Below are positions 33,564 to 51,034 of a DNA stretch of 64,000 bases, piece by piece; the first letter of the stretch is position 1; the number at the start of each line of letters is the position of its first letter. Origin of the DNA: Trypanosoma brucei. Taxonomy: Eukaryota. The notes beneath the pieces were generated by a model. The model was not told where the DNA came from and made no database searches. It saw nothing but the letters and a program-made list of their open reading frames with translations. The DNA lies in contig CP000066.1 of NCBI GenBank assembly GCA_000002445.1, positions 608,001 to 672,000 of the forward strand, given 5' to 3'. A program made the translations under genes and the position numbers.

Positions 33564-34420
33564 TTCAGAATTCTACACTGCCTGAGTTGCTCCAACACCA
33601 GCGCAAAGAAAAATAATAAACACCTCATACATAACATATATCATACAGTTATGTGTGTTTATACTTTGTTTCAAAATATATCGTATTGAATACAAATAGC
33701 AGACACATGACACGAAAAAATCCCATTAAGCGTTAACATGACATAAAATACCCTATTCAGATGCAACCGAACAAAAGGGTCGTATCCTTTCATTTTCTAC
33801 GCATATCACTTTTGATCCAAGATACGGTTAAACAGGTGACAAACATAATGCAGTACGTACTAAAACAAAAAACACTTTTTACTTGAATCCCTATATCAAC
33901 TCACAATCGACAACACATATTCGACATTAACTAACTCCATCATTAAAATACACTCCACTCTAACACAGAAACAACCCAATGTGATGCTTAGTTACCATAA
34001 CAAAGGAATACGCCTCACGTTTCACAAACATGGGTACGAAGTCATTCCACCCTAGTACACACATTTGGTCACCTCACATTAATAACCTGTTTCTTAAACG
34101 CGTAAGGCGTTGTTTAAATTTCACGTTGTCATATAATATAATATTCCATACATAATTCTGCCTGCAGAGTCCACACCATATCGACAGCTGCCTTCATCTT
34201 ACTTCCAAACAAACGCCTAAAACTCTTCTAAAGGAGTCTGGCGTAGCATAAAGATATACAATGACGCAAACACCAAAGAAGCTAGATTGAAACACAGGTG
34301 GGGAGGAACTATCGGCATCTGGGGATGAATGACTTCATTCAAATGGGCATGCACGAATGCAGCACCTTTGAAGGGACAAAAACTCGTTTTAGAAAGAAAA
34401 CTGACAAATAATTTGTACTC

Positions 34421-35077
34421 TCAGAGAAATAGGAGCAACACTGAGGAAAACACCTGGTAGATAGGTGGTTGCAGCGGCTGAGATTTGCTTGTCTGCTGTT
34501 CCGGGGGGCGAACAGAGGAAGTTCCGTTACGTTCGCTGCCAAAAGTGGAGGAGACAGTACCTTTATTTTCGGATTTGAGGTGGCCGTCATCCTTAGAGGG
34601 TGAACCATTTTCCTCCTTTTTAGGGGTCGCAGAAACCGAACTACCATTTCTCACCGGCTCTTCAGAAAGCACAGGGCCGTACTCGGATGATGGAGGTGCC
34701 TCACCTTTGTTAGAGGCATCGTCGCGACTTGAGTCTCCACCCGCTTCCACAACTGGTGAAGCGACTTCGGGTGTTGAGAGCCCAAGGAACTCACTAACCT
34801 TTGCGGTTACACATCTGTGCGGTGAAAAGCAGGTCAATCCCCCGCCGCAAACGGTACAGTTCCCCTCTGCAGGTGCGCCCGAAGGAACCCTGTGTGCCAG
34901 GGTGCAGTTTTTCTGTGCATACGTCATGAGACGATTCTCCTCGTTTCTAGTTATACGGCTTTCAATTCCCAATACTTCCGTGCACTTACCCACATATCCA
35001 ATTCTTCCCTCCCATACATTCTCACACATGGCCACACGTTGAACGAAACCGAACAGTATTATTGGTAGGCACAGCAT
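34421..35077 (-). CDS. array copy 2 (218 aa)
   Basis: Same architecture. Differs from copy 1 at a few residues (RDDASN, QQTSKS, VFSSVLLLFL). Confidence 0.55.
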   Translation of the reverse strand: MLCLPIILFGFVQRVAMCENVWEGRIGYVGKCTEVLGIESRITRNEENRLMTYAQKNCTLAHRVPSGAPAEGNCTVCGGGLTCFSPHRCVTAKVSEFLGLSTPEVASPVVEAGGDSSRDDASNKGEAPPSSEYGPVLSEEPVRNGSSVSATPKKEENGSPSKDDGHLKSENKGTVSSTFGSERNGTSSVRPPEQQTSKSQPLQPPIYQVFSSVLLLFL

Positions 35078-35934
35078 TTCAGAATTCTACACTGCCTGAG
35101 TTGCTCCAACACCAGCGCAAAGAAAAATAATAAACACCTCATACATAACATATATCATACAGTTATGTGTGTTTATACTTTGTTTCAAAATATATCGTAT
35201 TGAATACAAATAGCAGACACATGACACGAAAAAATCCCATTAAGCGTTAACATGACATAAAATACCCTATTCAGATGCAACCGAACAAAAGGGTCGTATC
35301 CTTTCATTTTCTACGCATATCACTTTTGATCCAAGATACGGTTAAACAGGTGACAAACATAATGCAGTACGTACTAAAACAAAAAACACTTTTTACTTGA
35401 ATCCCTATATCAACTCACAATCGACAACACATATTCGACATTAACTAACTCCATCATTAAAATACACTCCACTCTAACACAGAAACAACCCAATGTGATG
35501 CTTAGTTACCATAACAAAGGAATACGCCTCACGTTTCACAAACATGGGTACGAAGTCATTCCACCCTAGTACACACATTTGGTCACCTCACATTAATAAC
35601 CTGTTTCTTAAACGCGTAAGGCGTTGTTTAAATTTCACGTTGTCATATAATATAATATTCCATACATAATTCTGCCTGCAGAGTCCACACCATATCGACA
35701 GCTGCCTTCATCTTACTTCCAAACAAACGCCTAAAACTCTTCTAAAGGAGTCTGGCGTAGCATAAAGATATACAATGACGCAAACACCAAAGAAGCTAGA
35801 TTGAAACACAGGTGGGGAGGAACTATCGGCATCTGGGGATGAATGACTTCATTCAAATGGGCATGCACGAATGCAGCACCTTTGAAGGGACAAAAACTCG
35901 TTTTAGAAAGAAAACTGACAAATAATTTGTACTC

Positions 35935-36591
35935 TCAGAGAAATAGGAGCAACACTGAGGAAAACACCTGGTAGATAGGTGGTTGCAGCGGCTGAGATTT
36001 GCTTGTCTGCTGTTCCGGGGGGCGAACAGAGGAAGTTCCGTTACGTTCGCTGCCAAAAGTGGAGGAGACAGTACCTTTATTTTCGGATTTGAGGTGGCCG
36101 TCATCCTTAGAGGGTGAACCATTTTCCTCCTTTTTAGGGGTCGCAGAAACCGAACTACCATTTCTCACCGGCTCTTCAGAAAGCACAGGGCCGTACTCGG
36201 ATGATGGAGGTGCCTCACCTTTGTTAGAGGCATCGTCGCGACTTGAGTCTCCACCCGCTTCCACAACTGGTGAAGCGACTTCGGGTGTTGAGAGCCCAAG
36301 GAACTCACTAACCTTTGCGGTTACACATCTGTGCGGTGAAAAGCAGGTCAATCCCCCGCCACAAACGGTACAGTTCCCCTCTGCAGGTGCGCCCGAAGGA
36401 ACCCTGTGTGCCAGGGTGCAGTTTTTCTGTGCATACGTCATGAGACGATTCTCCTCGTTTCTAGTTATACGGCTTTCAATTCCCAATACTTCCGTGCACT
36501 TACCCACATATCCAATTCTTCCCTCCCATACATTCTCACACATGGCCACACGTTGAACGAAACCGAACAGTATTATTGGTAGGCACAGCAT
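35935..36591 (-). CDS. array copy 3 (218 aa, protein identical to copy 2)
   Basis: Identical translation to copy 2. Confidence 0.55.
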   Translation of the reverse strand: MLCLPIILFGFVQRVAMCENVWEGRIGYVGKCTEVLGIESRITRNEENRLMTYAQKNCTLAHRVPSGAPAEGNCTVCGGGLTCFSPHRCVTAKVSEFLGLSTPEVASPVVEAGGDSSRDDASNKGEAPPSSEYGPVLSEEPVRNGSSVSATPKKEENGSPSKDDGHLKSENKGTVSSTFGSERNGTSSVRPPEQQTSKSQPLQPPIYQVFSSVLLLFL

Positions 36592-37448
36592 TTCAGAATT
36601 CTACACTGCCTGAGTTGCTCCAACACCAGCGCAAAGAAAAATAATAAACACCTCATACATAACATATATCATACAGTTATGTGTGTTTATACTTTGTTTC
36701 AAAATATATCGTATTGAATACAAATAGCAGACACATGACACGAAAAAATCCCATTAAGCGTTAACATGACATAAAATACCCTATTCAGATGCAACCGAAC
36801 AAAAGGGTCGTATCCTTTCGTTTTCTACACATATCACTTTTGATCCAAGATACGGTTAAACAGGTGACAAACATAATGCAGTACGTACTAAAACAAAAAA
36901 CACTTTTTACTTGAATCCCTATATCAACTCACAATCGACAACACATATTCGACATTAACTAACTCCATCATTAAAATACACTCCACTCTAACACAGCAAC
37001 AACCCAATGTGATGCTTAGTTACCATAACAAAGGAATACGCCTCACGTTTCACAAACATGGGTACGAAGTCATTCCACCCTAGTACACACATTTGGTCAC
37101 CTCACATTAATAACCTGTTTCTTAAACGCGTAAGGCGTTGTTTAAATTTCACGTTGTCATATAATATAATATTCCATACATAATTCTGCCTGCAGAGTCC
37201 ACACCATATCGACAGCTGCCTTCATCTTACTTCCAAACAAACGCCTAAAACTCTTCTAAAGGAGTCTGGCGTAGCATAAAGATATACAATGACGCAAACA
37301 CCAAAGAAGCTAGATTGAAACACAGGTGGGGAGGAACTATCGGCATCTGGGGATGAATGACTTCATTCAAATGGGCATGCACGAATGCAGCACCTTTGAA
37401 GGGACAAAAACTCGTTTTAGAAAGAAAACTGACAAATAATTTGTACTC

Positions 37449-38123
37449 TCAGAGAAATAGGAGCAACACTGGAAAAAAAACCTGGTAGATAGGTGGTTGC
37501 AGCGGCTGAGATTTGCTTTTCTGCTGTTCCGGGGGGCGAACAGAGGAAGTTCCGTTACGTTCGCTGCCAAAAGTGGAGGAGACAGTACCTTTATTTTCGG
37601 ATTTGAGGTGGCCGTCATCCTTAGAGGGTGAACCATTTTCCTCCTTTTTAGGGGTCGCAGAAACCGAACTACCATTTCTCACCGGCTCTTCAGAAAGCAC
37701 AGGGCCGTACTCGGATGATGGAGGTGCCTCACCTTTGTTAGAGGCCTCGTCGCGACTTGAGTCTCCACCCGCTTCCACAACTGGTGAAGCGACTGCGGGT
37801 GTTGGGAGCCCAAGGAACTCACTAACCTTTGCAGTGACACATCTATAATTGAAAGGACAACGCAAGGTTCCCCCGCCACAAACGGTACAGTTCCCGTCAG
37901 TGGTTGCGCCAGATGGTACGCTTCGGATGGGAGTGCAGTTCGCTTCCGCATACTTCACGAGACGATTCTCTTCTGCTACGCCCGCTGGAGCCTTAATTTT
38001 CAGCAAATCCGTACACATATCCACAACTCCAACTCGCGTTCCCCATCCCTTCCCATAAGTAGCAACAATTTGAACCAATCCCGCGAACAGGGTTAATACA
38101 CAGACACACACAGGTCTCGTCAT
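37449..38123 (-). CDS. array copy 4: paralog with divergent N-terminal Cys domain, conserved stalk and tail (about 224 aa)
   Basis: Start moved to ATG 38123 (MTRPVCVCVLTLFAGLVQIVA signal peptide). Conserved NCTVCGGG..RC..RCVTAKVSEFLGL core. The C-terminal 120 aa match copy 1 variants (RDEASN, QQKSKS, VFFPVLLLFL). Confidence 0.5.
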   Translation of the reverse strand: MTRPVCVCVLTLFAGLVQIVATYGKGWGTRVGVVDMCTDLLKIKAPAGVAEENRLVKYAEANCTPIRSVPSGATTDGNCTVCGGGTLRCPFNYRCVTAKVSEFLGLPTPAVASPVVEAGGDSSRDEASNKGEAPPSSEYGPVLSEEPVRNGSSVSATPKKEENGSPSKDDGHLKSENKGTVSSTFGSERNGTSSVRPPEQQKSKSQPLQPPIYQVFFPVLLLFL

Positions 38124-39031
38124 TAATCTTTTACTAACATAACAATAAAAGCAAAAAAACTTCTTTGCAGAGCAATTAACTCGCTTTCTCTCATGTTTAA
38201 ACATTGTCAAGTTACCTTTTGTTTAATATACAGAGCCAGTTAACCACTCAGAAAACAACCAGTGAGTATAATCAGCGTCCACAATACTTATCCGTATGGG
38301 AAGAAATGAAATATGAAGTTACGTCTTTTAAAATCTTTATCAAAAGCAGCAGCCAAGCGACCGGAGACTCACATTTATCAAGTGCGAGTAGGGGGCATCT
38401 GTGGTTCAATAACATAAAAACACATGCAGTAACAAGTTTTCGCAGATAAATATTATGGAGTACCACCTATATAAGTCCAAGTCCACACAAAAAAAACCCA
38501 AGCAAAAGCAAATACACAGTAAAGAAATAATTACAAACACATTTGATAGCACCGTCTGTTGATAGCAAATACTTAAACAGCGAAGAAGAAAGACGTTCAA
38601 AGCATTACAAAACACATCGTGGAGCAGTTCTGTAGAAACGATTACAAATGGGAAATAACCAACTCCCACGAAACAGTACATCACTGTAGCCAGTCCATCA
38701 AGAAAAATTGGCAGCGTCTCGGCGCGTGATTCAACTCTTTTCGAACGCTAGACAGCATCCACAACACTAAGCAGTTAGGTACAAATATAGATCACTACAT
38801 AGCAAAAGCAAAATGCGGTAAGTACCGCAAAGGGGTCCCCCATCCTTACGCTGTTCTATTATTTATTTCGCTTCTTCCACTTTATTGCAGTCTACAATTA
38901 TAGGCGCTTTCTCCCATCATATATTAAAGCATAATAGCGCGAGAAAGAACAAAAGGTCATAGATTAACGTATCGAGCTAGTGTGAGGGGTGATGCTCTGA
39001 GGCAGTATTTGTATCTAGTTTAGTGACGGAT

Positions 39032-39949
39032 TTATCCGGTGATAAAGCATACAATTGCGACAAGGAGGTTCTGTATCGCTCCATATCTCACGTTGTTTCC
39101 TTTTTTGTTTTCTGGTTTGCGGTCGATTCTTCCTGTGTTTGATACAATTCCTGCACCTGCTGCAACTGTATCATCCCGTCCGCGCACTGGTTCCTCCCTT
39201 CCTGGGTCTGCATCCTGTTTCCCATTGGTCGTCGTGCCATCTTCTGCAGCATCGCGCTGGTGATCATTCACTGTACCTTTTTCTGGTGAAGATTCCCCTC
39301 GAGGGTGAGTATGCTTCCCTCCCTGAGTTGCTCCTCCCTTTTCTGGTTCCTTTCGGGTCAAGCCCTCACCTCCAGCTCCGTCCTTTTTCCCCGAAGCTCC
39401 CCGCTTCTCCCCAGCAGTTCCCCGCTTTTCCCCCGGACTTTGCTGATCTTCCTTTGGAGTTTCCTCACCTTCCCCCGAAGCTTCCTGCTCCTCCCCCTCA
39501 CTTTTGGGAGCACTGCTCGCTGTCTCTTCGTCGTCCGAACCGCTACCCTTAGTTGTGTCTGAGGGTCCCTGTTCAGACGCGGCAGACTGCTCTACCGTCT
39601 CTTCTGTAGGGACCTGTTGTGTTATACTCCGCCAGTCGGAGTCGGAGCATGTTGTGGCATTGAGTGAATCCTCGCTTGAGTCCTCGTCCGTGCAATTAAG
39701 GGTGTGCAGCCGGTGGCCGTTTCCATGAAAAATGGCGTACACTTTGAGCTTCAGCTTGAAATATCCCTGTGGTTGTCCCTTTCCGATCAGAAGCACAGGA
39801 GTGTTTGTGCAGTTGGCAGGGTGCCACTTGCCCTTCCATCTGCACAGCGCCCCTTCCGCTTCATTATGCAGACAGTCACACCTGAAAGTCACTGCTGAAG
39901 ATCCCAAAACTACACAACTTGCTAGAAACAACGCTGTAAATGTCAACAT
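39032..39949 (-). CDS. acidic Ser/Glu/Gly-rich secreted or membrane-anchored protein with N-terminal Cys-containing domain
   Basis: ATG confirmed at 39949. Signal peptide MLTFTALFLASCVVLGSSA. Cys motif FRCDCLHNEAEGALCRW...NCTNT...LNCTDED. Long acidic low-complexity region with imperfect GEKRG(T/A)(A/S)G repeats. Hydrophobic C-terminus LLVAIVCFITG. Confidence 0.5.
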   Translation of the reverse strand: MLTFTALFLASCVVLGSSAVTFRCDCLHNEAEGALCRWKGKWHPANCTNTPVLLIGKGQPQGYFKLKLKVYAIFHGNGHRLHTLNCTDEDSSEDSLNATTCSDSDWRSITQQVPTEETVEQSAASEQGPSDTTKGSGSDDEETASSAPKSEGEEQEASGEGEETPKEDQQSPGEKRGTAGEKRGASGKKDGAGGEGLTRKEPEKGGATQGGKHTHPRGESSPEKGTVNDHQRDAAEDGTTTNGKQDADPGREEPVRGRDDTVAAGAGIVSNTGRIDRKPENKKGNNVRYGAIQNLLVAIVCFITG

Positions 39950-42900
39950 AGAGTGTTAGCTGCCTGTCCTCTACTTGTAAAAATCACTGAAAAAGGGATG
40001 TACTCGGTAAACACAGGGTCCACACAAACGCAAACACACGTTCCTAACAGCTTTCAATTGCACTTACACTCCCCGTTACTCCAGCAGGTTCCACTGGTCG
40101 TCAAATTTAGCAGTAAATTTATTCCTCACGAAGATAAGCTATCACCAATCCACTAATAGGCAATCGGTCACCCTTCTGGTCGACTTCTGTAGACTTACTA
40201 CCCCATAATTAGTTGAAGTTTTTGGGTAAGGCTACCTGCGCCTGAAGTTTTAGAGACCCCGGGAATTTCTAAGTGCATGCGCGAGTTGCATTGCAGCCAC
40301 ACAACCATATATGCCCCGGCGTGCCTGTAAAAAAGACAAACACGTAGTTACTTAACAAGCAGATGTGCTCGCGCACGAATGTCTCCCAGTAAAAACACAC
40401 ACAAAGGTATAACGTGAAACAACAATTCCAAGCTAACTTAGCGGATATGTATTAAGACAAAATAATTAAAGCAGTCATGGTGGAAAGAACTTGAAATATG
40501 GAACTTAAGGGAACACCGTTTCCCCCTTTTTTCTTAAAGATAAACGGTCTGACTTTCCTATTTATCTTCGTTACCGGTTACGTCATTGTCACTCTGAAGC
40601 TTTGTTTCGATTCTGCTTCCCGCTACAACGCCGGCTGTAGCAATAAACCGGCCTCCTCTTAGGCATGCTTGAGCGCTTTTCATTCCCGCTTTTGTTATTC
40701 GCCAAGAAGTGGCTTGACAGGTGTTGGAGTTTCTTTGATCCACCTCAAACGCGGGGTTTCCTTTTTTTTATTCCCTCCAAAAATACGAAGGGGCAACTCG
40801 CCTAGCGGTGATTCCACCCACAAAAGAGAAAGCACACACAACGTAAGTTAGCGTGATGAATAGGGTGTACAAAGTTAATTATACCCTTTTTCCACCTTAC
40901 GTTGCAAAGGTCAGGCATGTCAGTTAGTTAATATATTTTTCACCACCGTCGGAAAGTAATTAAGTACCACTTTAGGCAATCTTTCCCTCTATGTCCGGGG
41001 ATCAATACGACCTTTCACATCTCTCCTCGTCAACACCTTCCCCCTACTGCGCTTTAGTGAGAACAGCACCAACTCAGGTGAATCAACGAAGTAAATACCA
41101 ACAACTATTGGGGACTTGGAAATGTACCTACCTCCGTGAGCGTTACCGATCCTTCAAATCACTGGGTGTTTTTTTTTAAAAAGAGCGGCTGGAACCCATG
41201 GCCCCTCATGTCACCACAAAGCCGAATCTCAGTACTTGTGCGCCCTCATTCACACGTTTAGTTGTTATCATATTAACAGGTTCCAATAAGATGGTACCTT
41301 TCGCGTTACTCTAGGCCCGAAATCGGTTGTGGAATCATTCAGGACCTACCGCCACCGGTGGGATACCTTTCCCGACTCCAAACTTCAGGTTGCAAACTCT
41401 CCGTACCTGCAGAAAGTAGCAGCGCCCCGATAGAAAGTTAGGTTCCATCACCTCTTATCTTTAAATTTGTTTTTATTCACATGCGACGGAGTTTAACTGA
41501 CGAGGCACCAACCCATTCCTTTGTAACTTCAGGGATGATGCCGCTTTCGGCCGCCCTCTACACGACAACCTCTAATTATCCAGAGTAGCACCAATAACAT
41601 ATGCTGTTACCATTTAAAAGAGCATTCAGCATGGATGACTTCCCCCCGATGTCACTAATAATTGAGTAACGCGGTTCCGGAAGTGTTGTGTTACAACTTA
41701 TTCTCTTAGGATGGAACAAACTCCTTCGTGGTAGCACACCTTAGCGGCATCGTGAGATATTCACCACAGCACCAAGTGGGGGAGATTGATTTAGGCGCAT
41801 GAAGTATGGATGTCACTGTGCGGGTTGTACTGTTCAAAAGAGTGGGTTGTCGGCAAAAGGTGTTACAAGCCACACGATGTTACACGAGTAGACGGAAATC
41901 TAATGAGGTGCGTTCAGCTGTTGTGCGCACGTTCGGACAAGAATACGCCAAAGTGAGGCAATAATGTGCACGTGAAGACGGCACTAACGCGTAGATCGTT
42001 TGCCACTTGTATATCATATTTCCCCAGGAGTCCAGCCCAAAGTATTCGTACCGGCTGAAGGCGCACATTAATGAATTTCAACGGATGCATCAACCACAGA
42101 ACTTAGAGAAGGGCTCCGCTACCACTGGTAAATACTAAAGGAGACATTGCCCCTCTCCCAAAGACATAAAACCGTTGCCGAAGGCGCCTCAGAGAATTGC
42201 GATTATAGAGGGAGTAAGCCGGCATGCAACACGTTGGCACTCGCGCGGCTCTCGCAAAGAGTATTTACATTTTATGTGCAATGCAAACTCCTCTCCGTGC
42301 GGATACGCCTTTCACCGTCGACACCATTGGCACTGAGACTTTAGCAGTAATTGTAGAAATGTATAAGCCCCCGTATGTTGCACTTTTATTTATTGACAAT
42401 GTGATACTTCACGCAATCCCGTGCCTGCCCTCCCCATCGTTTTGTTCATTCCGTTTTTAAGCCATAACTGCGGGGCTGTGGTGACAAGGTTCAAAGCGAC
42501 CACCAATAGGAGAGGAAAGATATATACATACATATATATCATCAGGCTTCTTTTGGCCCGAATGCGCCAAGAAACTATTGAGTGTTTCCCCTCGCGTGGC
42601 AAAACCACTTCATGGGGCGATAAACTCCCGAGCTCACTCACGGGCAAAACATTCCAGTAGGAACTTGTAAAATGTGGAATGGAGGAGGAATGACTAGCAA
42701 CCGAGCGGGAAGTTTTTGGCACACTGCTTATTCCCAGCACCATGACCGCTACCGATGGCATTGGACTCACCTTGTTCTTTTACCCCAAAGAACTTTAGCA
42801 GGTACCGTACTGCTTTTATGTTTTAACACAACCGTCGTTCCCCCTATAAACTCCGTTTACCTTCACTCCTTCCGCAGGGAAGCGCAAACGAGCAAATAAC

Positions 42901-44521
42901 CCCCGGTATTTGAGCTTTGCAGATCCCTCTTACGCATATATCTTGCGATGTTGACAACTGCAGCCCGACGACGATAGCGGTTAATTGCTAGTGACACTGG
43001 CTGATTTGGTACTTTATATATATATATAAAGGAAGTTAAACGTCACCGTCTTGCCCTCCGTAACCAGATGATGATGGAGATTAACTCACTGTCAAGCAGG
43101 TTAGATGCGCAACGCAATGCGGGACTCCTCAGTTTAAAAAAAAAAAAAAGCATCTTAGTCTACCACTGAACCCGCGGCAACTTGTTCTGACAAAAACTGA
43201 CCGTGGTGTGTTTCCCGCCATTTATTAGGGGAAAATGTCACGCGAAACCAAAGTAAAGAGGGCAGAAATAACTACTCACCAACCTCTGACCTGCTGAAAA
43301 ATGGTGAGGGACAGAGAATGTAGTTGGATTACTCAGCCAGGGATAACTTGTATTTGTGCTCGCGTCATGTGTTTCAGACTAGAGGTGTCATTTGCACAGA
43401 TAGATTCACATCATTGTTCCAACAGAAAGAGTAAATAAGGGGTGACGAATGATAGGGTGCGAAGGAAGGAATAAATAACTCAGAACCAAACGAAGTATAA
43501 GTTTCGTCAAGACATTTCGTACGACAAGAGTGAAACGTTATAGTCATCAGTGGCTTCATTTGTGGTAGCGGTGGTGCCGATCACTTGTGAGCCCGCCGGT
43601 AGGATGAAGGGTCTTCCACTGAACAATAACATGGCGGCGCGCTTTTCCACACCCAACTTTGTTAGGTCACACACACACGAAACAAATCCAACTGAATGTT
43701 CCATTGCTAAGGGTACAGTAGCAAAATGGGAGGAAATAAGTGCATAATCTGCTGAAGCGCACTACCAGTCCCTGGAATGAAGGTGATTACAGATAACTAA
43801 CTTCAACATACTCGAGCATTCTTTCAGCCATTCGAGCGGCCAATAAGGGAACCGTTGCACTTCCTTCCTTTCCTCCTCCTTCCCCCTATAAATATCGCAC
43901 TGGTAGCGCCCACGGGGATGCCTCACCGTCCCTAGGCGCTGCGGCGTCCCATGAACAATATCATGAACGGTTAAACAAAAACAGAAGTAAAAAAGTGAAC
44001 TTTTTGAATACTGGTGGAGGAAGAGGAAATAACAAGTATTTATGCACGACACAAAAATGATATTGGTACAAGGTTGAAAGCAAAGTGCTTTGGAGACCCA
44101 TCGTTGGGGCGAGGAATTTCTCACCACTCCCATTCAATGTGCACGAATAAACTCCCGCCTGCTCCACACCTTTGTACGCTCATTATCTCGTTCACCTTCT
44201 CTCACATCATCATCATTCCTTTATCATCTCCCTTCATTTATGCTTGCACGACAGCAGAGGTGTCATCCCGCAGAGACACACATACACATACACACACGCA
44301 CACGTATACAAATATCATCTTCAGCATGCGACGGCCAACACAGTTCAGTGGGAGTGAGGAAGACGCTAATCACATTCCCTCCATTTATTCCCCCTTGTCT
44401 TTCTCCCTCAGTTTCCCCTTGCGTATTTCCCTCGTCTACTCTCGTCGCTCCCCAACTTCCATGACTAGTCAATAAAAATAGATAAAATTAAAACAAAAAC
44501 AAAAACAAGACCGACAAACCC

Positions 44522-47500
44522 TCACTTCTGCTCATTTCGCTTTGCAGCGAGCTCGCTCACCCATTTCGCCTTTTTGGCGGCGTACTTTTCCTCGGCAAAT
44601 CGCTTCTGTATTTGCAGCTGAAGTGAATTTAACCGCTCGGCTACTTTCAGCAACCTCGGAGCTCCCGCACTGTAACCTTCCTCCTGTGCTGTAAAAGATT
44701 CATCAGGCATAATGGCTGTTAGAATGCTGGCGGCCGGTAAGTGAGCCTTCCGCACCAGTCCAGCCAAATTGGAAATGAGTTTTTCGGCTCTGTTGAGCAC
44801 CGAGTAGGAAAGAGACTGTGAGAGCCCATTGAGTTCCTCCAGCATCGTGAAGCGGTAGTTCTTCCGAGTGGTGTCAATCTGCGCTTTAACGCGGAGGAAA
44901 TCAGCGAGACAGGCGTTGATGAGAACCTGCGCTCCATCATGACGCCATCCGTCTGATACATCGAGAACGGGAAGCAGACGACGGTCGCAGAAGAGATCGT
45001 CGCGGAGAGAAAAGACAACTTCATCAACAGAAGTGAAGACGTCACCGCAACCACTGATGGCCACAAACGGGTGACGAGCCTTAAACTGAACGGCAGATTC
45101 CTTGAGCGCATCCATTAGTGGGAAATCACCGGCGCCGTTGCCAAATATAAGTTGGTCGCCACCCGTTTCCACGTATGGCAAGCGGGGACCTTCACTCGAT
45201 TCCTCCTCTTCCTCCTCTTCCTGCTCCTTTCCCTTCTCTTCTTTCTCCTTCTTCTCGTCCAACCTTGACGCCAATTGGTTGTAGAAGGCAGAAAGCAGAG
45301 CAAAGAACTCTGTGTTATCAAAAGGACGTACGGAGGGGGAGCAAACATCAACGGGCGACAGTACGACACGATGTTGTGTGGCATTTGTTTTGCCCTCCCA
45401 CACCACGCTTACAGCCGGGTCAAGTAAAGCGGAACGATGAATTTCCAGCGGTACACCACATGTTTGGTGGAATGAGAAGAGATAGGCAAGCAGTTCGGCA
45501 ATAGGTTCATCCGTAACACCGCTGTGTAGCTCCTTATCGAGAGCAGGTGGATAGTGAGCCTCATGGAAAACTCCAGAGGTCAGCATGCGAATAAAGGCGA
45601 ATCCCTCATTACCCACATGGGCCTCCCTGAAAACGTACATGACATCTTGCAACAAGGAACCCAATGAAGAGGGGCGGTCCCGAAAGTGGAGTCCTTGCTT
45701 CTGCAGGAATACAAGGAGCATTTGCAGGTACTCTATGGTGAATCCCTCCATGTTACTTTGTGCAAATGCCTCCCGGCGTTGGAAAAAGAGCGGATTAACA
45801 AACAGCCTCTCGGCCAACTTCTTAACGTGCTGCTTCCATGCGTCCTCGTGCTTCAACGATCTGTGCGTGTTATAATCATATAACTGAAGTAGTCGCAACT
45901 GTGATATGGGGTCCATCTGCACATTCCCCTTAATCACCGTCATGCCGCTCGTCATAAGCCGCTTAATGCGTTGCATGGTAATCCCTAGGAAAATCAAGTG
46001 GCCGAGGTGATCGAGACCACGACGACCCGCACGACCCATCATTTGACGGAACTGCGTCGGATTTAACAGGATGTGATCACCGGCGAGTACAACAGAACGA
46101 CACGGGCTGTGAATGCCCAGCGCCAATGTTTCCGTGGAGAAAATAACACCGCAGTGGCGGCCTCGGAACAGCCTTTCCACGTGACCACGAAGTTTACCCT
46201 TCACACCGGCATGATGCATCCCAATACCCCGCTTTAAAGCGCGAAGAAGGAGGTCCTCCCCCTCACCTTCGCAGTCCTTTATTAGTTCCTTTACGACATC
46301 GGGTTCCACGCTGCACCCCGCCCCAATGAAAGTGAACTCGGGAAGAATATCTGGGACTTCGCAGACCTCCCCCTCATCTTCTTCACCTTCGTCCACATCA
46401 CGCTCGGCCCTCTCCACCTCACCATCCTCATTAGTCCTGAGGCGCTTTTGCTTCAGCGTGGACTCGCGTTGTTTGTGCCTCGCCTCCCGCTCCGCGGCCG
46501 CGCGCTCCACCTTGGCTTTGTAGAGGGCGAATTCCTCAGTTTGCCGGTAGCGCTCCTCTGCCTCTTCCAGCTGCTCCACAACGTACTTCACCAAGTCTTC
46601 ACAGTCTTCGGACTCGAAGCTGAACACAATAGCTGGGCCCATGTCCCTAGCGGAAATCTCGCGCAACACATTCAAACTTTGCTCTCGAATAAATTGCCTT
46701 GATCCCGGAAAAGCCGCCTCCGGCACCGCCTCATCTGACTCTTGCTCACTTCTACCCTCAGTGTTGGTCCTGCTTTGTTGTTGTGCGCGCTTCCTCTCCA
46801 TAGCTGCAACAGCATAGCTACCGAGCGCCGCCTCCTTCTCGTTCAACTTTTGCGCAAAGGCTGCAAGGATGGTCTCCGTTGCATGTTTCATCGTGGAGTT
46901 GAACTCTTTCACCTGTTCATCGGAGGAAATATCCGGCTTCTTCACGCTACTGTTGCTTAGCAGAACCCACTGAGCGAAGGCGTCCTTTACTTCCCGTTCA
47001 TACAGACGTGCACGCTGCTGGGTAATATACAAGTCCGCTTCAAAGTATCTCCCTGGCTCAAGGAGCTTGAGCTTCGACTGCAGCATCTGAACCCGCGGTA
47101 TCGAAGACAACTTCGGCCAAATGATGTTATCGAAGGCGGTTCGCATTTCCCCAAATAATGATACCACCTCACTGGGGACAAGGGTAATGTCAGGAGGGAA
47201 TCCCCGCTGGAGTTGGTCCGTTGTGAGGATGGACAAGGGATGTAAGTCGTGGATGTAGCGGTTCTCATATGTGGTAGTGAGTTTCTTCAAAGACGTACGC
47301 GTATCGGGAGGGGGAAGATAAATGTACTTCTTTATGTCATTCCATCGCTGAATGGTTTGGCCCTCCGATGGAAGCACGTGTACCCTATAGTCACGTGCCT
47401 TAGCGGGTGTGTCAACTGCCTGCTCCTTCAGCCGAGATTGCACGCGATTAAGCCACCCACACAGTTGCTGAGTTTCTCCCAGCGTGGCTGAAAGCGCAAC

Positions 47501-50500
47501 GAAAGGGCAGGGCAGAAGGGCAAGAATGCGTTCCCACACGTCACCATTGCCATTGCTCTCCATGGAGTGAATCTCATCGAGAATTACGTAATCGATAAGG
47601 TCAACCCATTCAGCGTACTTGGGTGAAAGCAACATGGTTTCAAATGTCTCGGGCACAGTCAGAAGTACTTGGCAGGAATCGTGGAACTGATGGTAGTCGG
47701 CCCCACCAAGAACACCATAAATATATTTACCACTATTTTTGTACTCTTTGGACCCATAGCGAGCGCAGACATCGGCCACCGCTTGATTAATCAACGCACG
47801 GGCGGGAGCAAGGTACACAACAATCCGCCTGTTGGAGCGGCGAAGAGTGTTATACATGCAGTAATACGAAACAAACGTTTTCCCAGCTGAAGTTGGGGCA
47901 CACACTACAGCACTCCCGCGATTGTCCACGATGTCAAGGAGCTCTCGCTGCCAACTGTCTGGGTTGAAGGCAACGCGGTAATCGGGTCTTCGAATGACCG
48001 GCCGCTCAAGCAGGTGTCCCATGTGAATGAGTTGCATCATTTCTGGTGTGTCGGTCAGTTGCCGCATCCGCGGGAGCATCGTTGGCCCTAACAAACTCGG
48101 TGCCTTATTTTGCCACTGAGTGATGGCACGGTCCAGCTTGCTGTAGTAATCTTCCCCAAAGTCCAGGTGCCTCAGAGCGGAGCGTACCGTGTCAAGGTCC
48201 TCTTGCGATATTTGCAGACCCTCGTTTTGGACCACCGACAAGACGTGATGGTGGCAATAAAGAAACAGCGGAATGGCTACCGATAGATCCGGTGTTTCCT
48301 TGGCCAAACGGGCACGCTCCCGCTCACTACGCCAGTTTTCGAGACGAAGTTTAACTACGAAGCATTTGATTTTCATCTGGATGTGCAGTTCCACGTAGGA
48401 CAGATACACCCACCGCAGGTACGACGCAGCTTCCGCGCTTGTTATATCCGACTTGAACTTCCGCAGCCCCTCCAGTTCTCCCCATTCTGTGCTCTTATCA
48501 CTTATGGTGGCGACGAGGTTATCAATGACTGTAAAACCGTATGGCACAGCAGTCTCCGTCTTCAAGCCCTTTTTCTTGACAGCGCGGTTCTTTGCCGAGG
48601 GATCTTCAAGCGTGAGCGCAAACTCCGCCTCACGGAGCCCACTGGAAGCCACAAGCAGGCGCCACATGGAAATCTTTAACGAAATATCGCTACCTTCACT
48701 CTTTCCAATCGTGCGATCGGGCTCGAAACCTTTGGTGAACTTTGCCTCCGCGAGTCGCTTGACTGCAGCCAAAAGTTTCTTCACAGCGTCATCACGATCT
48801 TTGTTGGTCGTACGTCCGTGCGTTGGGTCGATGCTGCGGAGGTGATCGTCCATTTGCTTCAACCAACTCTGAATGCTACTTGCGGCGTCTTTCAAATTCT
48901 TCTGCTCACGAATTTCATCATCCTTGCTACGCCCCTTCTTATTACGCTGTCCCTCGTGCTCATTATTCCCCTTTTTCTTCTTCGCGGCCGCACCCTTACC
49001 ACACCCTCCTGCACCTCCTGATCCAGCGGCGTCAGTGCTTTCTTGCTCATTATCCGAGCAAACCAAAGTTAGTGGTTGGGCGGCGAAACCACTTATTCCC
49101 ATGGACTGCGCCTGCTGGAAGGCGTTACGGACGAACTTCGTCTGAAACTCCTGCGCATGTCTTGCTTCCTTCTCAGTCATGTGAATCTTTGCCTCACGCT
49201 CCCCATCAGCATCAGTAACGTCGTTGAACTTGTCGAAAGGAGTGGTTATATCCCACCCAATAAGCTCATTGGCGGCGCCGTAGCCATCGGGTATCGGCCG
49301 CTTTGCCTTGTGTCCCTCCACCTTGAAGGTTTTGGCCAGGTGCTCTACTAACTCGTGTTTAAGGTACGGATATTCCTGAAGCTGCACAGGTTGAGGCTGA
49401 GCTAGCTCAGGGAGGCTCCTAAACGGTGTCGAGGTAATGTCAAGTGTGTCGTCGTCCATAAGATACTGCCAAGTCATGGAGATGTCCCCTACACCGTCTT
49501 CATCCAACAAATGGCTTGGCGCTTCTTCGCGTAGCAATCGCGCAACGGCGTAGAGGAGATGTCCGTCGATAATGTCGAATACCTGACCGCCTCCGTTGTC
49601 GCAGCCAGCGTGTCGAAGTGCGCTAAGGAGAAATGGTGAGATATCCGCAATAAAGTTTTGGAGCACGGCGCTGGGTAATGCCGCCTGGGCCCTGGCCTCG
49701 CAGCTCAGTATTCCCACAATGTAAGCCGTTATAACAAGGGCCTGACAAAGCTGCTGCTCTTGTTCGCTTCGTTCCTTCATGGTTAGATAGGTGCGTACTG
49801 CCGAACAGACAATCTTCTCACGGAATGTCAGGTCCTCGTTCAGCACGTTCAATGATTTTTGGGACAATGTGGGCAACGTCACTTCACGTTCGAGTGATTG
49901 AGCCAACGCGCGCACCTCCGGCTCGATTCCCAGCGAGCGCTCAAGGGTTGAGCCGTCCACGCCCATGGTGAAGACGATCATAGAGTTCTCCCTGTAGATG
50001 ACACGAGACGAGTACGCGACTTTGAGGCGGCGGGAGGCTGCCCAAAGCAGCAGACATCGAATATACATAGCCGCATCATTTCCTATTTCCTCGTCCTCAA
50101 CGATGCTCCTGTACGGCCGACGTGCAGGCACAGCGACGGCACCGCTGGAGTTGACACCTGAGGATGCATTAGTTGTTTCAACCTCCGGATTGACAAAAAA
50201 CTCTTGCAGCGGGTTCAAGGAACCCAGTTGCTCACCGTCAGACATGAAGATAAACTCCGGCTCCCACTCTTTCAGGTAGGTCTCAAAGGCCTCACTATGG
50301 AAACTTGGAAAGGTACGCACGGTGAAGCGGGAGCCGCCTGGGCACTCGCTCGCGGCTGTCAGTGCCAGTCGTAAGTTTTCCCTCATCAGCATTTTCGCAG
50401 GGGCTCGTTCCCACATCCACAACATACTATCGAAGAAAACAATGTGGAATCGGGCCCCGCGGCACTCCATATCGAAGAGCAGCTTTTGTGCATTGTACAT

Positions 50501-51034
50501 GACATGTAATGGCTGTATGAGGTCCCAGTCTACATTTGGTGGTGAGAGGGCAGACATGAACAAGGAATCACCGTCTATAAAAAACATCTCCGTTGCGGCA
50601 AGATGTGCGAACATGTCACAGAGTTCGGGCCGTGCAGTGGCGTAATGGTGCTCCACCGCCGTACGCAGCAGCTCTTCTTCAATCACAGCTCGCATCTTCC
50701 CATCCTTCTGGACGGCAGCAACAAGGAACTTCCACGCATTGCGTTCCTCTTCCTCGTGCTTCAGGGTGCCGACAATTCCACCGGCTGGTGGCTTCCCTCC
50801 GTTTCGGAACGCGGATAACACGGCGTCACATACGCGACTTAATGCGCTGCGGCGACGTGCAACTTGAGCGATTTTCCCCTCATATGAGGCATCAGCCTCT
50901 TCCTGAATCGGAATGTTTTTGGCTTCGAAAATGGCCTGTAGGGCCCCTACGGTATCCATAGGAATTTTTAAAAAATCATCATCCTTGAGACAGTTACCGA
51001 ACAGCAGGTTAAGATCCCGTTGCTGAGTAGCCAT
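44522..51034 (-). CDS. giant DExH-box (Ski2/DDX60-like) RNA helicase, 2170 aa
   Basis: ATG confirmed at 51034. Central helicase core: motif I VCAPTSAGKTFVSYY, Ia VYLAPARALINQ, II DYVILDEIHSM, III LSATLGE, VI QMMGRAGRRGLDHLGHLIF. About 1000 aa N-terminal and about 500 aa C-terminal extensions carry no recognisable motif. Acidic E-rich linker (EKGKEQEEEEEEESSE). Confidence 0.85.
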   Translation of the reverse strand: MATQQRDLNLLFGNCLKDDDFLKIPMDTVGALQAIFEAKNIPIQEEADASYEGKIAQVARRRSALSRVCDAVLSAFRNGGKPPAGGIVGTLKHEEEERNAWKFLVAAVQKDGKMRAVIEEELLRTAVEHHYATARPELCDMFAHLAATEMFFIDGDSLFMSALSPPNVDWDLIQPLHVMYNAQKLLFDMECRGARFHIVFFDSMLWMWERAPAKMLMRENLRLALTAASECPGGSRFTVRTFPSFHSEAFETYLKEWEPEFIFMSDGEQLGSLNPLQEFFVNPEVETTNASSGVNSSGAVAVPARRPYRSIVEDEEIGNDAAMYIRCLLLWAASRRLKVAYSSRVIYRENSMIVFTMGVDGSTLERSLGIEPEVRALAQSLEREVTLPTLSQKSLNVLNEDLTFREKIVCSAVRTYLTMKERSEQEQQLCQALVITAYIVGILSCEARAQAALPSAVLQNFIADISPFLLSALRHAGCDNGGGQVFDIIDGHLLYAVARLLREEAPSHLLDEDGVGDISMTWQYLMDDDTLDITSTPFRSLPELAQPQPVQLQEYPYLKHELVEHLAKTFKVEGHKAKRPIPDGYGAANELIGWDITTPFDKFNDVTDADGEREAKIHMTEKEARHAQEFQTKFVRNAFQQAQSMGISGFAAQPLTLVCSDNEQESTDAAGSGGAGGCGKGAAAKKKKGNNEHEGQRNKKGRSKDDEIREQKNLKDAASSIQSWLKQMDDHLRSIDPTHGRTTNKDRDDAVKKLLAAVKRLAEAKFTKGFEPDRTIGKSEGSDISLKISMWRLLVASSGLREAEFALTLEDPSAKNRAVKKKGLKTETAVPYGFTVIDNLVATISDKSTEWGELEGLRKFKSDITSAEAASYLRWVYLSYVELHIQMKIKCFVVKLRLENWRSERERARLAKETPDLSVAIPLFLYCHHHVLSVVQNEGLQISQEDLDTVRSALRHLDFGEDYYSKLDRAITQWQNKAPSLLGPTMLPRMRQLTDTPEMMQLIHMGHLLERPVIRRPDYRVAFNPDSWQRELLDIVDNRGSAVVCAPTSAGKTFVSYYCMYNTLRRSNRRIVVYLAPARALINQAVADVCARYGSKEYKNSGKYIYGVLGGADYHQFHDSCQVLLTVPETFETMLLSPKYAEWVDLIDYVILDEIHSMESNGNGDVWERILALLPCPFVALSATLGETQQLCGWLNRVQSRLKEQAVDTPAKARDYRVHVLPSEGQTIQRWNDIKKYIYLPPPDTRTSLKKLTTTYENRYIHDLHPLSILTTDQLQRGFPPDITLVPSEVVSLFGEMRTAFDNIIWPKLSSIPRVQMLQSKLKLLEPGRYFEADLYITQQRARLYEREVKDAFAQWVLLSNSSVKKPDISSDEQVKEFNSTMKHATETILAAFAQKLNEKEAALGSYAVAAMERKRAQQQSRTNTEGRSEQESDEAVPEAAFPGSRQFIREQSLNVLREISARDMGPAIVFSFESEDCEDLVKYVVEQLEEAEERYRQTEEFALYKAKVERAAAEREARHKQRESTLKQKRLRTNEDGEVERAERDVDEGEEDEGEVCEVPDILPEFTFIGAGCSVEPDVVKELIKDCEGEGEDLLLRALKRGIGMHHAGVKGKLRGHVERLFRGRHCGVIFSTETLALGIHSPCRSVVLAGDHILLNPTQFRQMMGRAGRRGLDHLGHLIFLGITMQRIKRLMTSGMTVIKGNVQMDPISQLRLLQLYDYNTHRSLKHEDAWKQHVKKLAERLFVNPLFFQRREAFAQSNMEGFTIEYLQMLLVFLQKQGLHFRDRPSSLGSLLQDVMYVFREAHVGNEGFAFIRMLTSGVFHEAHYPPALDKELHSGVTDEPIAELLAYLFSFHQTCGVPLEIHRSALLDPAVSVVWEGKTNATQHRVVLSPVDVCSPSVRPFDNTEFFALLSAFYNQLASRLDEKKEKEEKGKEQEEEEEEESSEGPRLPYVETGGDQLIFGNGAGDFPLMDALKESAVQFKARHPFVAISGCGDVFTSVDEVVFSLRDDLFCDRRLLPVLDVSDGWRHDGAQVLINACLADFLRVKAQIDTTRKNYRFTMLEELNGLSQSLSYSVLNRAEKLISNLAGLVRKAHLPAASILTAIMPDESFTAQEEGYSAGAPRLLKVAERLNSLQLQIQKRFAEEKYAAKKAKWVSELAAKRNEQK

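What the first reader, a model, noticed from the sequence alone, without database searches (positions are those of the whole stretch)
39950..44521. 4.6 kb ORF-free stretch of complex (non-simple) sequence inside a polycistronic unit
Typical intergenic spacers in this window are 0.3-2 kb and dominated by homopolymer/dinucleotide runs. This interval is 4.6 kb and has ordinary base complexity. The longest ORF in any frame is under 130 codons. That profile fits a degenerate element, such as a decayed ingi/RIME-type retroposon or a dead paralog of a neighbouring gene. It also fits a non-coding RNA locus or an internal transcription-start/termination region. It directly follows the accessory segment, so it may mark the boundary where the surface-gene block was joined to the core.
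Basis: seen in the sequence. Interest (0 to 1): 0.55.

Follow-up and report, generated by a model that had tools for sequence, protein, structure and literature searches.

The report
Non-coding spacer at internal transcription stop
The 4.6 kb gene-free stretch is real and non-coding; it separates the last conserved gene of a Trypanosoma brucei transcription unit from a T. brucei-only surface-gene block, and published work shows that block is kept low by base J/H3.V-dependent transcription termination, so the locus is interesting but largely already explained.

Summary
The window is T. brucei TREU927 chromosome 3. The interval 39950-44521 lies between the DDX60-like helicase Tb927.3.2600 and the orphan surface-protein gene Tb927.3.2590, both on the minus strand.

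**Observation: confirmed.**
- It is 4,572 bp and the longest spacer in the window.
- Its sequence complexity matches coding DNA.
- Its ORFs are no longer than chance.

**No support** for a decayed retroposon, a dead paralog or a catalogued ncRNA.

**What is there:**
- RNA-seq contigs show the helicase mRNA ends about 220-430 nt past its stop codon. The interval is therefore not one long 3'UTR.
- In Leishmania infantum and T. cruzi the helicase is the last gene of its transcription unit. In Leishmania it is followed by the chromosome-3 tRNA-Lys termination region.
- In T. brucei about 17 kb of lineage-specific genes (2590, a four-copy array, VSG-related, ESAG1) sit beyond that point.
- Reynolds et al. 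2014 and 2016 show these genes (Tb427.03.2500-2590) rise when base J and/or H3.V are lost. They present "cSSR 3.3" on chromosome 3 as a termination site inside a transcription unit.

**Best reading:** the interval is the junction spacer and probably where that known attenuation zone begins. The exact J/H3.V peak position could not be checked.

**Verdict:** already known in kind, low to moderate interest.

The parts
44522..51034 (-). Tb927.3.2600, a DDX60-like helicase and the last conserved (core) gene of this minus-strand gene cluster
   Evidence: Pfam finds DEAD, Helicase_C and PIN-like_DDX60 domains. It is identified as Tb927.3.2600 by exact cluster look-up. Orthologs at 50-66% identity occur across trypanosomatids. 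It is the terminal gene of its cluster in T. cruzi and L. infantum.
44089..44521 (-). 3'UTR of the helicase mRNA, at least 433 nt at its longest observed end
   Evidence: Four Logan RNA-seq contigs (L007-L010) cover the whole mRNA. L007 starts with the spliced-leader 3' end joined at window 51249/51250, after a polypyrimidine tract and AG. The 3' ends fall at 44299, 44173, 44120 and 44089, and none extends further.
43973..44038 (-). First sense-strand polypyrimidine tracts, with AG dinucleotides at 44001 and 43940. This is the predicted processing signal that fixes the helicase poly(A) site just upstream.
   Evidence: Polypyrimidine scan, combined with the position of the RNA contig ends. The coupling of polyadenylation to downstream trans-splicing is established knowledge and is stated in PMC4150806.
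42505..43742 (-). Seven further sense-strand polypyrimidine/AG sites. These are candidate orphan splice-acceptor sites for short non-coding products. There are none in the downstream half, 42500-40001.
   Evidence: No RNA evidence was available. No coding potential.
39987..44088 (-). About 4.1 kb of unique non-coding spacer. It is the candidate seat or upstream edge of the base J/H3.V-marked termination zone inside this transcription unit (published as 'cSSR 3.3').
   Evidence: No ORF beyond chance. No protein-domain relic, no paralogy or repeats, no Rfam or tRNA hit, no structured-RNA signal. It is not alignable to the post-helicase DNA of T. cruzi, T. theileri or T. grayi. The genes immediately downstream respond to loss of J/H3.V while the helicase is not listed.
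39950..39986 (-). Predicted short 5'UTR of Tb927.3.2590. The AG acceptor is at 39988-39987, preceded by the polypyrimidine stretch 40000-39989.
   Evidence: Read directly from the sequence. This is an inference; no transcript contig for 2590 was found.
39032..39949 (-). Tb927.3.2590, an acidic orphan protein with a signal peptide and a hydrophobic C-terminus. It is the first J/H3.V-responsive gene.
   Evidence: Translation. Identity. No homolog outside the T. brucei group. RPKM is 10.2 in wild type, 18.0 with DMOG, 20.1 in the H3.V knockout and 45.6 in the knockout with DMOG. It rises at least 2-fold on J loss, confirmed by RT-qPCR. It is 48-fold higher in bloodstream than in procyclic forms.
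23198..38210 (-). T. brucei-specific accessory block: four tandem 218/253-aa genes (Tb927.3.2550-2580), VSG-related 2540, an ESAG1-like gene and two VSG_B-domain genes
   Evidence: ORFs. Pfam finds VSG_B and ESAG1. The array is present only in T. brucei and T. b. gambiense. Tb427.03.2580, 2540, 2530 and 2500 are derepressed in the H3.V knockout with or without DMOG.
21540..23197 (.). Convergent strand-switch region. Plus-strand core genes end at 21539 and minus-strand genes start at 23198. It is probably the published cSSR 3.3.
   Evidence: ORF map. Pfam on the plus-strand genes finds PH, Arv1, PUF, kinase and VPS9 domains. The Fig 3 legend of PMC4721609 gives 'chromosome 3 (617-670 kb) representing cSSR 3.3'. 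The link to this window rests on the gene IDs in that paper's tables, not on coordinates.

Best explanation
The interval is a unique, non-coding, T. brucei-lineage spacer. It sits where an ancestral RNA polymerase II transcription unit ended.

Its first ~0.2-0.43 kb is the helicase 3'UTR. A polypyrimidine/AG signal at 44038-43973 sets the helicase poly(A) site. Its last ~40 nt are the predicted 5'UTR of Tb927.3.2590.

The ~4.1 kb in between carries no gene, no gene relic and no catalogued RNA. It is most likely where Pol II begins to be attenuated by the base J/H3.V-marked termination zone that Reynolds et al. described for this locus ('cSSR 3.3').

On this reading, most polymerases that have transcribed the helicase stop in or soon after this spacer. 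As a result 2590 is only moderately expressed, and the VSG-related, ESAG and array genes beyond it are nearly silent in bloodstream forms. Removing H3.V and/or base J lets polymerase read through and derepresses the block.

Shown: the anatomy, the non-coding nature, the helicase mRNA ends, the synteny break, and the published derepression of the downstream genes. Inferred: that the J/H3.V domain and the actual stop lie in this spacer rather than only downstream of 2590.
For: 1. Identity of the locus.
2. Non-coding and unique.
3. Helicase mRNA boundaries. The spliced-leader junction is at 51249/51250. The 3' ends fall at 44299-44089, directly upstream of the first sense polypyrimidine tracts.
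4. Ancestral end of the transcription unit.
   - In T. cruzi, opposite-strand genes start 466 bp after the helicase.
   - In L. infantum chromosome 3, a tRNA-Lys lies 782 bp downstream, followed by a convergent gene.
   - PMC2695483 reports that Pol II transcription of both convergent clusters on L. major chromosome 3 terminates in that tRNA region.
5. The downstream block is T. brucei-specific and made of VSG-related and ESAG-type genes.
6. PMC4721609 tables list Tb427.03.2590, 2580, 2540, 2530 and 2500 as one cluster.
   - They are upregulated after loss of H3.V and/or J; 2540 goes from 0.34 to 8.3 RPKM and 2580 from 0.73 to 14.6.
   - Every row visible in the retrieved passages is flagged as within 10 kb of J and of H3.V (the 2590 row is cut off before its flags).
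   - A search for Tb427.03.26 in the held supplementary files found nothing.
   - Fig 3 of that paper shows a chromosome 3 region as a termination site inside a transcription unit, with J and H3.V co-localised and read-through detected by strand-specific RT-PCR.
7. PMC4150806 confirms by RT-qPCR that Tb427.03.2590 rises at least 2-fold when J is lost. For 2590 to respond through read-through, attenuation must begin upstream of or within it. The interval is the only sizeable sequence there.
Against: - The position of the J and H3.V peaks and of the 'proposed TTS' is given only in a figure that could not be read.
- The tables say only 'within 10 kb'.
- 2590 still has RPKM 10 in wild type, whereas 2580 has 0.7. 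The main stop could therefore lie after 2590, with 2590 merely 'within the peak'.
- The equation of cSSR 3.3 (427 coordinates 617-670 kb) with this window rests on gene IDs, not on mapped coordinates.
- No sequence feature in the interval is diagnostic of termination. There is no tRNA relic, no G-quadruplex motif, no repeat and no unusual conservation.
- Later data sets did not list these genes: PNUTS RNAi (file cut when stored), the H3.V/H4.V/J knockouts and the SET27 knockout. ID formats may explain part of that.
Confidence: 0.6

Rival explanations
1. Passive long spacer. The interval is transcribed evenly as part of the primary transcript and simply discarded. It perhaps yields unstable trans-spliced fragments. 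The J/H3.V termination site lies downstream of 2590.
For: - 2590 is expressed at RPKM 10 in wild-type bloodstream forms, while 2580 drops to 0.7.
- 2590 is a robust bloodstream-specific mRNA.
- The interval has no diagnostic sequence feature.
- Its between-subspecies divergence (0.9%) is like that of an ordinary spacer at 0.66%.
Against: - 2590 itself rises 1.8-4.4-fold on loss of J/H3.V, confirmed by RT-qPCR. Reynolds et al. restrict such a response to genes downstream of or within the peak.
- The interval occupies the ancestral end of the transcription unit.
Confidence: 0.22
2. Head-to-tail boundary. Transcription of the core unit terminates after the helicase, and a new Pol II start region in the interval drives the accessory block as its own small unit.
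For: - A long same-strand gap at an ancestral terminus.
- 2590 is clearly expressed.
- GT-rich stretches occur on the sense strand.
Against: - PMC4150806 states that most of these internal termination sites lack initiation marks (H2AZ, H2BV, histone acetylation) and carry H3V/H4V.
- Expression falls steeply from 2590 to 2580 rather than being sustained.
- Derepression upon loss of termination marks, together with the read-through RT-PCR, argues for read-through rather than independent initiation.
Confidence: 0.1
3. A long non-coding RNA locus. One or more trans-spliced, polyadenylated lncRNAs are made from the upstream half and have a function of their own, for example in regulating the neighbouring bloodstream-stage genes.
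For: - Eleven sense-strand polypyrimidine/AG sites cluster in 44510-42505.
- T. brucei has about 1,400-1,500 mostly intergenic lncRNAs with ordinary processing motifs, many of them bloodstream-enriched and next to VSG/ESAG genes.
Against: - No novel intergenic lncRNA is listed for this place in the nanopore study. Its chromosome 3 entries are at 384-394 kb and 1,160 kb.
- No RNA-seq contig carrying an interval ORF was found.
- There is no excess RNA structure.
- There is no special conservation.
- Whether an annotated KS17gene lncRNA lies here could not be checked.
Confidence: 0.1
4. Decayed mobile element or dead gene (ingi/RIME/DIRE/SIDER relic, or a pseudogene of an ancestral or neighbouring gene).
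For: - GC content and complexity resemble coding DNA.
- An A14 run lies at 43136-43149.
Against: - No Pfam domain in any frame at E<=1.
- No similarity to any window gene.
- No similarity to the genes or DNA downstream of the helicase in T. cruzi, T. theileri or T. grayi.
- No codon-usage signal: the maximum is 5.7 bits per 300 nt, against an in-frame helicase mean of 19.
- No target-site duplication and no repeats.
Confidence: 0.04

Closest known systems
Termination sites inside T. brucei transcription units marked by base J and histone H3.V (Reynolds et al. 2014 NAR, PMC4150806; Reynolds et al. 2016 PLoS Genet, PMC4721609; PJW/PP1 complex, Kieft et al. 2020, PMC7055916)
   Same: - Same-strand gene cluster, upstream of a convergent strand-switch region.
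- The downstream genes are VSG-related, ESAG or hypothetical, and low or silent in bloodstream forms.
- Those genes (Tb427.03.2500-2590) appear in the published tables as derepressed on loss of H3.V and/or J and as lying next to both marks.
- A chromosome 3 site ('cSSR 3.3') is one of the paper's three worked examples.
   Different: Nothing known to differ. What is missing is the exact position of the marks relative to the 4.6 kb spacer. The first downstream gene (2590) is only partly repressed, unlike the fully silent genes of the chromosome 5 model site.
Convergent strand-switch termination region of Leishmania major chromosome 3 (tRNA gene between two convergent clusters; Martinez-Calvillo et al. 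2004, as summarised in PMC2695483)
   Same: The same position relative to the orthologous helicase. In L. infantum the helicase is the terminal gene and the single chromosome 3 tRNA (tRNA-Lys CTT) lies 782 bp downstream.
   Different: - T. brucei has no tRNA or tRNA relic here.
- The opposing cluster is not the orthologous one.
- About 17 kb of same-strand lineage-specific genes follow before the strand switch.
Synteny-break insertion of lineage-specific surface-gene families at ends of transcription units (a general trypanosomatid pattern; recalled from my own knowledge of the TriTryp comparative genome papers, not tested here as a family)
   Same: - Core synteny ends at the helicase.
- T. 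brucei and T. theileri each carry their own small secreted or surface-type ORFs at this spot.
   Different: Here the insertion lies behind what was, and apparently still is, a terminator, so position alone lowers its expression.
T. brucei intergenic trans-spliced lncRNAs (Guegan et al. 2022, PMC9200285; Kruse and Goeringer 2023, PMC10048164)
   Same: Long intergenic space with ordinary polypyrimidine/AG processing motifs, next to bloodstream-specific surface genes.
   Different: No transcript evidence could be obtained for this interval, and no novel lncRNA is listed there.

Membership tests
Base J/H3.V-marked termination site inside a T. brucei transcription unit | Lies inside a run of same-strand genes, upstream of the convergent strand-switch region that ends the unit | tested here: met
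   All ORFs from 63988 down to 23198 are on the minus strand. The strand switch is at 21540-23197.
Base J/H3.V-marked termination site inside a T. brucei transcription unit | Genes downstream are low or silent in wild-type bloodstream forms and rise when base J and/or H3.V are removed; genes upstream do not | tested here: met
   Look-up in the published tables of PMC4721609. Tb427.03.2590, 2580, 2540, 2530 and 2500 are listed as upregulated; no Tb427.03.26xx entry exists. RT-qPCR confirmation for 2590 is in PMC4150806.
Base J/H3.V-marked termination site inside a T. brucei transcription unit | Peaks of base J and H3.V located at the site itself | not testable with these tools
   The published tables flag the listed genes of this cluster (rows visible for 2500, 2530, 2540 and 2580) as within 10 kb of J and of H3.V. 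The peak positions are shown only in Fig 3, whose image is not held.
Base J/H3.V-marked termination site inside a T. brucei transcription unit | Nascent read-through RNA spanning the site appears when the marks are lost | not testable with these tools
   Reported for cSSR 3.3 by strand-specific RT-PCR. Primer positions relative to the interval are unknown.
Head-to-tail boundary (termination plus re-initiation) | Start-region chromatin marks (H2A.Z/H2B.V, H4K10ac) downstream of the stop | not testable with these tools
   There is only the general statement that most such internal sites lack these marks.
ingi/RIME/DIRE/SIDER retroposon relic | Remnants of reverse transcriptase or endonuclease coding sequence | tested here: not met
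   Six-frame translations against Pfam-A gave 0 families at E<=1.
ingi/RIME/DIRE/SIDER retroposon relic | 3' poly(A) tail flanked by a target-site duplication | tested here: not met
   The only long A-run (43136-43149) has no matching 12-mer, allowing 2 mismatches, upstream within 7 kb.
ingi/RIME/DIRE/SIDER retroposon relic | Nucleotide similarity to the family consensus or the 79-bp signature; multi-copy in the genome | not tested
Within the 64 kb window the interval is single-copy.
Dead paralog of a neighbouring gene | Translated or nucleotide similarity to a window gene | tested here: not met
   tblastn of 19 window proteins gave a best E of 0.13. tblastx and blastn found nothing. The codon-usage scan was negative.
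Catalogued structured ncRNA (snoRNA, snRNA, 7SL, tRNA) | Match to an Rfam covariance model at gathering score, or an ARAGORN tRNA | tested here: not met
   the best sub-threshold hit scored 21 bits against a gathering score of 46.7. The folding z-score scan had mean 0.06 and SD 1.04. Its single outlier was not reproducible.
Long 3'UTR of the helicase mRNA | Helicase transcripts continue across the interval | tested here: not met
   Four independent RNA-seq contigs end at 44299-44089. Minor longer isoforms cannot be excluded.

The most novel reading that the evidence does not exclude
The internal terminator is older than the genes it silences. The T. brucei J/H3.V termination zone at this locus would be the retained ancestral terminus of the helicase transcription unit. 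That is the same position as the experimentally defined tRNA-associated terminator of Leishmania chromosome 3 and the convergent switch of T. cruzi. The T. brucei-specific surface-gene block was then inserted behind it. If this is general, 'termination sites inside transcription units' would be relic unit ends, and placing new genes behind them would be a route to position-dependent silencing.
Probability: 0.35. Interest if true: 0.55.

Novelty: already known. Interest (0 to 1): 0.3.

Why it matters
Trypanosomes are usually said to lack transcriptional gene control. Termination inside a transcription unit, marked by base J and H3.V, is one of the few exceptions, and this locus is one of its published examples.

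Pinning the 4.6 kb spacer as the junction gives a concrete, single-copy DNA segment to delete, move or map. On one side is a deeply conserved terminal gene. On the other is a lineage-specific, bloodstream-stage surface-gene block. That makes it possible to ask what specifies such a stop.

The comparative result is the only new element. The same spot is the end of a transcription unit in Leishmania and T. cruzi. It suggests a simple evolutionary origin for these sites.

Tried and rejected
1. Concatenated six-frame segments (3,030 aa, joined by X) searched against 5.8 billion proteins returned nothing. The search also missed the gambiense 123-aa ORF that is known to be in the collection, so it is uninformative.
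2. Exact look-up of the 123-aa interval ORF found only the gambiense genome and no RNA-seq contig. Look-up of Tb927.3.2590 found no gene record, so TREU927 chromosome coordinates of the window could not be obtained.
3. Supplement searches with Tb927-style IDs found nothing in Kieft 2020 (file cut when stored), Kim 2021, the SPARC paper and, at first, Reynolds 2016. The Reynolds 2016 hit came only with Tb427.03 IDs. The Kim 2021 search did include Tb427.03-style terms and still found nothing; the negatives in the other papers may reflect ID format. Supplement look-ups are exhausted.
4. The Guegan 2022 lncRNA tables are not held, so annotated KS17gene lncRNAs in the interval could not be checked.
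5. Between-subspecies divergence is not unusually conserved or diverged. The interval is at 0.9%, an ordinary spacer at 0.66%, helicase synonymous sites at 1.6%. It rises towards 2590, from 0.44% to 1.9%.
6. The RNA folding scan gave one window with z -4.4. On refolding with 200 shuffles it fell to z -1.6.
7. No canonical G-quadruplex motif. Direct and inverted repeats are short and at chance level.
8. T. congolense and T. vivax loci could not be retrieved; there were no contigs on record. The age of the spacer within African trypanosomes is therefore unknown.
9. The sequencing runs behind the RNA contigs (ERR7929156-63) could not be traced to a paper, so strain and life-cycle stage are unknown. 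The contigs are 99.8% identical to TREU927.


Full report
**Where we are.** The window is Trypanosoma brucei brucei TREU927 chromosome 3.
- The 2170-aa ORF at 44522-51034 (minus) is the DDX60-like helicase Tb927.3.2600.
- The 305-aa ORF at 39032-39949 (minus) is Tb927.3.2590, annotated in T. b. gambiense as a 'T. brucei spp.-specific protein'.
- The tandem 218-aa ORFs are Tb927.3.2550-2580.
- The 407-aa ORF at 29733-30956 is VSG-related, Tb927.3.2540.
- Further down the minus strand lie an ESAG1-family gene (27419-28684) and two VSG_B-domain genes (23198-26289).
- Plus-strand core genes (VPS9, kinase, PUF, Arv1, PH domain) run from 797 to 21539.
- 21540-23197 is therefore a convergent strand-switch region.

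The gap between the helicase stop and the 2590 ATG is 4,572 bp, the longest spacer in the window.
- The longest open frame is 155 codons and the longest ATG ORFs are 123 aa.
- Shuffles give 130 +/- 24 and 103 +/- 25, so the ORF content is at chance level.
- Trinucleotide entropy (5.94 bits) equals that of the helicase CDS (5.95).
- Only 2.2% of bases are in simple runs, and GC is 0.45.
- The claim that other spacers are 'dominated' by simple runs is overstated; the figure is 0-14%.
- T. b. gambiense annotators called three small genes here (112, 123 and 123 aa). These are the same chance ORFs.

**What it is not.**
- *Protein relics.* Six-frame translations hit no Pfam family at E<=1, so there is no reverse transcriptase, endonuclease, VSG, ESAG or RHS relic.
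- *Paralogy.* No window protein, and no other window DNA, resembles the interval.
- *Coding signal.* A codon-usage log-odds scan trained on the window's genes peaks at 5.7 bits per 300 nt. In-frame helicase windows average 19.1, and the maxima of the other spacers are 4-11.
- *Repeats.* There are no meaningful direct, inverted or tandem repeats.
- *Retroposon signature.* There is no target-site duplication at the A14 run.
- *Catalogued RNAs.* Rfam finds nothing at gathering threshold and only noise at E<=10. ARAGORN finds no tRNA.
- *RNA structure.* A folding scan on both strands is centred on z = 0. Its one outlier was not reproducible.

**RNA boundaries.** Four contigs assembled from public sequencing runs carry the complete helicase ORF.
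- One starts with the 3' end of the spliced leader, joined to the genome at 51249/51250 behind a classical polypyrimidine tract and AG.
- These are therefore mature mRNA, with a 215-nt 5'UTR.
- Their 3' ends fall at 44299, 44173, 44120 and 44089. None goes further.
- Directly downstream lie the first sense-strand polypyrimidine tracts (44038-43973), with AGs at 44001 and 43940.
[quoted passage not shown] This arrangement explains a helicase 3'UTR of about 0.2-0.43 kb.
- It also shows the interval is not one long 3'UTR.
- Ten more sense tracts lie between 44510 and 42505 and none in the downstream half.
- The sequence just before the 2590 ATG has a short polypyrimidine run and an AG at 39988-39987, predicting a 37-nt 5'UTR (inference).

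**Comparative anatomy.** Upstream synteny (the 2047-aa protein, the PGAP1-like gene and the helicase) is conserved in T. cruzi, T. theileri and T. grayi. It ends exactly at the helicase.
- In T. cruzi, opposite-strand genes begin 466 bp after the helicase stop.
- In L. infantum chromosome 3 a tRNA-Lys(CTT) lies 782 bp after the helicase, followed by a convergent HEM4-like gene.
- PMC2695483, citing Martinez-Calvillo et al. 2004, states three things:
  - L. major chromosome 3 has two convergent clusters separated by a tRNA gene.
  - Pol II transcription of both clusters terminates in the tRNA region.
  - Chromosome 3 holds a single tRNA locus.
- The interval therefore occupies the position of an ancestral, experimentally defined end of a transcription unit.
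- None of the DNA after the helicase in the other species aligns with the interval.
- The 2550 array is reported only from T. brucei and T. b. gambiense.
- 2590 has no homolog outside the T. brucei group.
- T. theileri carries its own small signal-peptide ORFs at the same spot.
- The interval is kept at 4.5-4.6 kb in T. b. gambiense and in two T. equiperdum genomes.
- Its divergence from gambiense is 0.9%. An ordinary neighbouring spacer shows 0.66%, helicase synonymous sites 1.6% and the 2590 CDS 5.1%.

**Function, from the literature.**
- Reynolds et al. 2016 (PMC4721609) define 'PTU internal termination' sites. There base J and histone H3.V co-localise inside a gene cluster and Pol II stops before the end, silencing downstream genes.
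- One of their three worked examples is 'a region on chromosome 3 (617-670 kb) representing cSSR 3.3'. It comes with RT-qPCR and with strand-specific RT-PCR of read-through.
- Their tables use Tb427.03 identifiers. They list Tb427.03.2500, 2530 (ESAG pseudogene), 2540, 2580 and 2590 as one cluster, with the rows visible in the retrieved passages flagged as adjacent to both marks.

| Gene | Wild type | + DMOG | H3.V knockout | H3.V knockout + DMOG |
|---|---|---|---|---|
| Tb427.03.2540 | 0.34 | 0.68 | 4.1 | 8.3 |
| Tb427.03.2580 | 0.73 | 1.09 | 5.5 | 14.6 |
| Tb427.03.2590 | 10.2 | 18.0 | 20.1 | 45.6 |

(Values are RPKM.)

- No Tb427.03.26xx gene appears in those tables.
- Reynolds et al. 2014 (PMC4150806) confirmed by RT-qPCR that Tb427.03.2590 rises at least 2-fold on J loss.
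  - They add that the majority of these sites lack initiation marks.
- Independently, 2590 is 48-fold higher in bloodstream than in procyclic forms by nanopore direct RNA sequencing. That study lists no novel intergenic lncRNA at this place.

**Synthesis.**
- *Shown:* a real, unique, non-coding, lineage-specific spacer. Its first ~0.2-0.43 kb is the helicase 3'UTR. It lies at a synteny break and an ancestral unit terminus. The genes beyond it are repressed by J/H3.V-dependent termination.
- *Inferred:* Pol II attenuation begins in the spacer itself. 2590 responds to loss of the marks while the helicase does not, and the spacer is the only substantial sequence between them.
- *Main alternative:* the stop lies mainly after 2590. 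This fits the 14-fold drop from 2590 to 2580. In that case the spacer is passive.
- The remainder is shared by a head-to-tail boundary, an lncRNA locus and a decayed element.
- The peak positions are shown only in a figure I could not read. The link between 'cSSR 3.3' and this window rests on gene identifiers.

**Verdict.** Two of its suggested readings (junction of core and surface-gene block; internal termination region) are supported. The others are not. The biology is already published, so novelty is low. The one new point is that this internal terminator coincides with the end of the same transcription unit in Leishmania and T. cruzi.

Noticed in passing
window 39032-39949 (minus), Tb927.3.2590: Between TREU927 and T. 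b. gambiense the gene has 41 non-synonymous and 6 synonymous differences (pN/pS about 2.1). They cluster at residues 168-190 and 227-240 of the acidic region. The CDS diverges by 5.1%, against 1.6% at helicase synonymous sites. The protein has no homolog outside the T. brucei group. This could reflect diversifying selection or repeat-register shuffling.
   Followed up: partly
window about 42500-41900: T. equiperdum OVI is nearly identical to TREU927 from 52000 down to about 42500. From 41944 downwards it shares SNPs with the gambiense/BoTat haplotype. This is a haplotype switch (a recombination or loss-of-heterozygosity breakpoint) inside the interval.
   Followed up: no
window 13352-17139: A second long ORF-poor gap (3,788 bp) lies in the plus-strand core cluster between the PUF-like and Arv1 genes. 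It has lower GC (0.36) and more simple repeats (8.9%) than the interval studied.
   Followed up: no
L005 (T. theileri) 16499-21543: T. theileri has its own same-strand ORFs right after the helicase. One is a 284-aa protein with a signal peptide. They are unrelated to the T. brucei block. The same end of the transcription unit has therefore acquired lineage-specific genes independently.
   Followed up: partly
window 32907-38210: Four tandem copies with a period of 1,514 bp (Tb927.3.2550-2580). The copy nearest the interval (37449-38210) has a divergent N-terminal half. Each copy also carries a 185-aa ORF on the opposite strand, probably a composition artefact.
   Followed up: no
L002 16560-18655 (T. 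b. gambiense), equivalent to window about 44475-42390: The gambiense genome annotation contains three gene models (112, 123 and 123 aa) inside the interval. They correspond to chance-length ORFs with no coding signal and are likely over-annotation.
   Followed up: yes
window 40513-41462 (plus strand): Eight polypyrimidine tracts cluster on the antisense strand in the downstream part of the interval, where the sense strand has none. This might be a relic of an earlier opposite-strand unit, or it might be chance.
   Followed up: no
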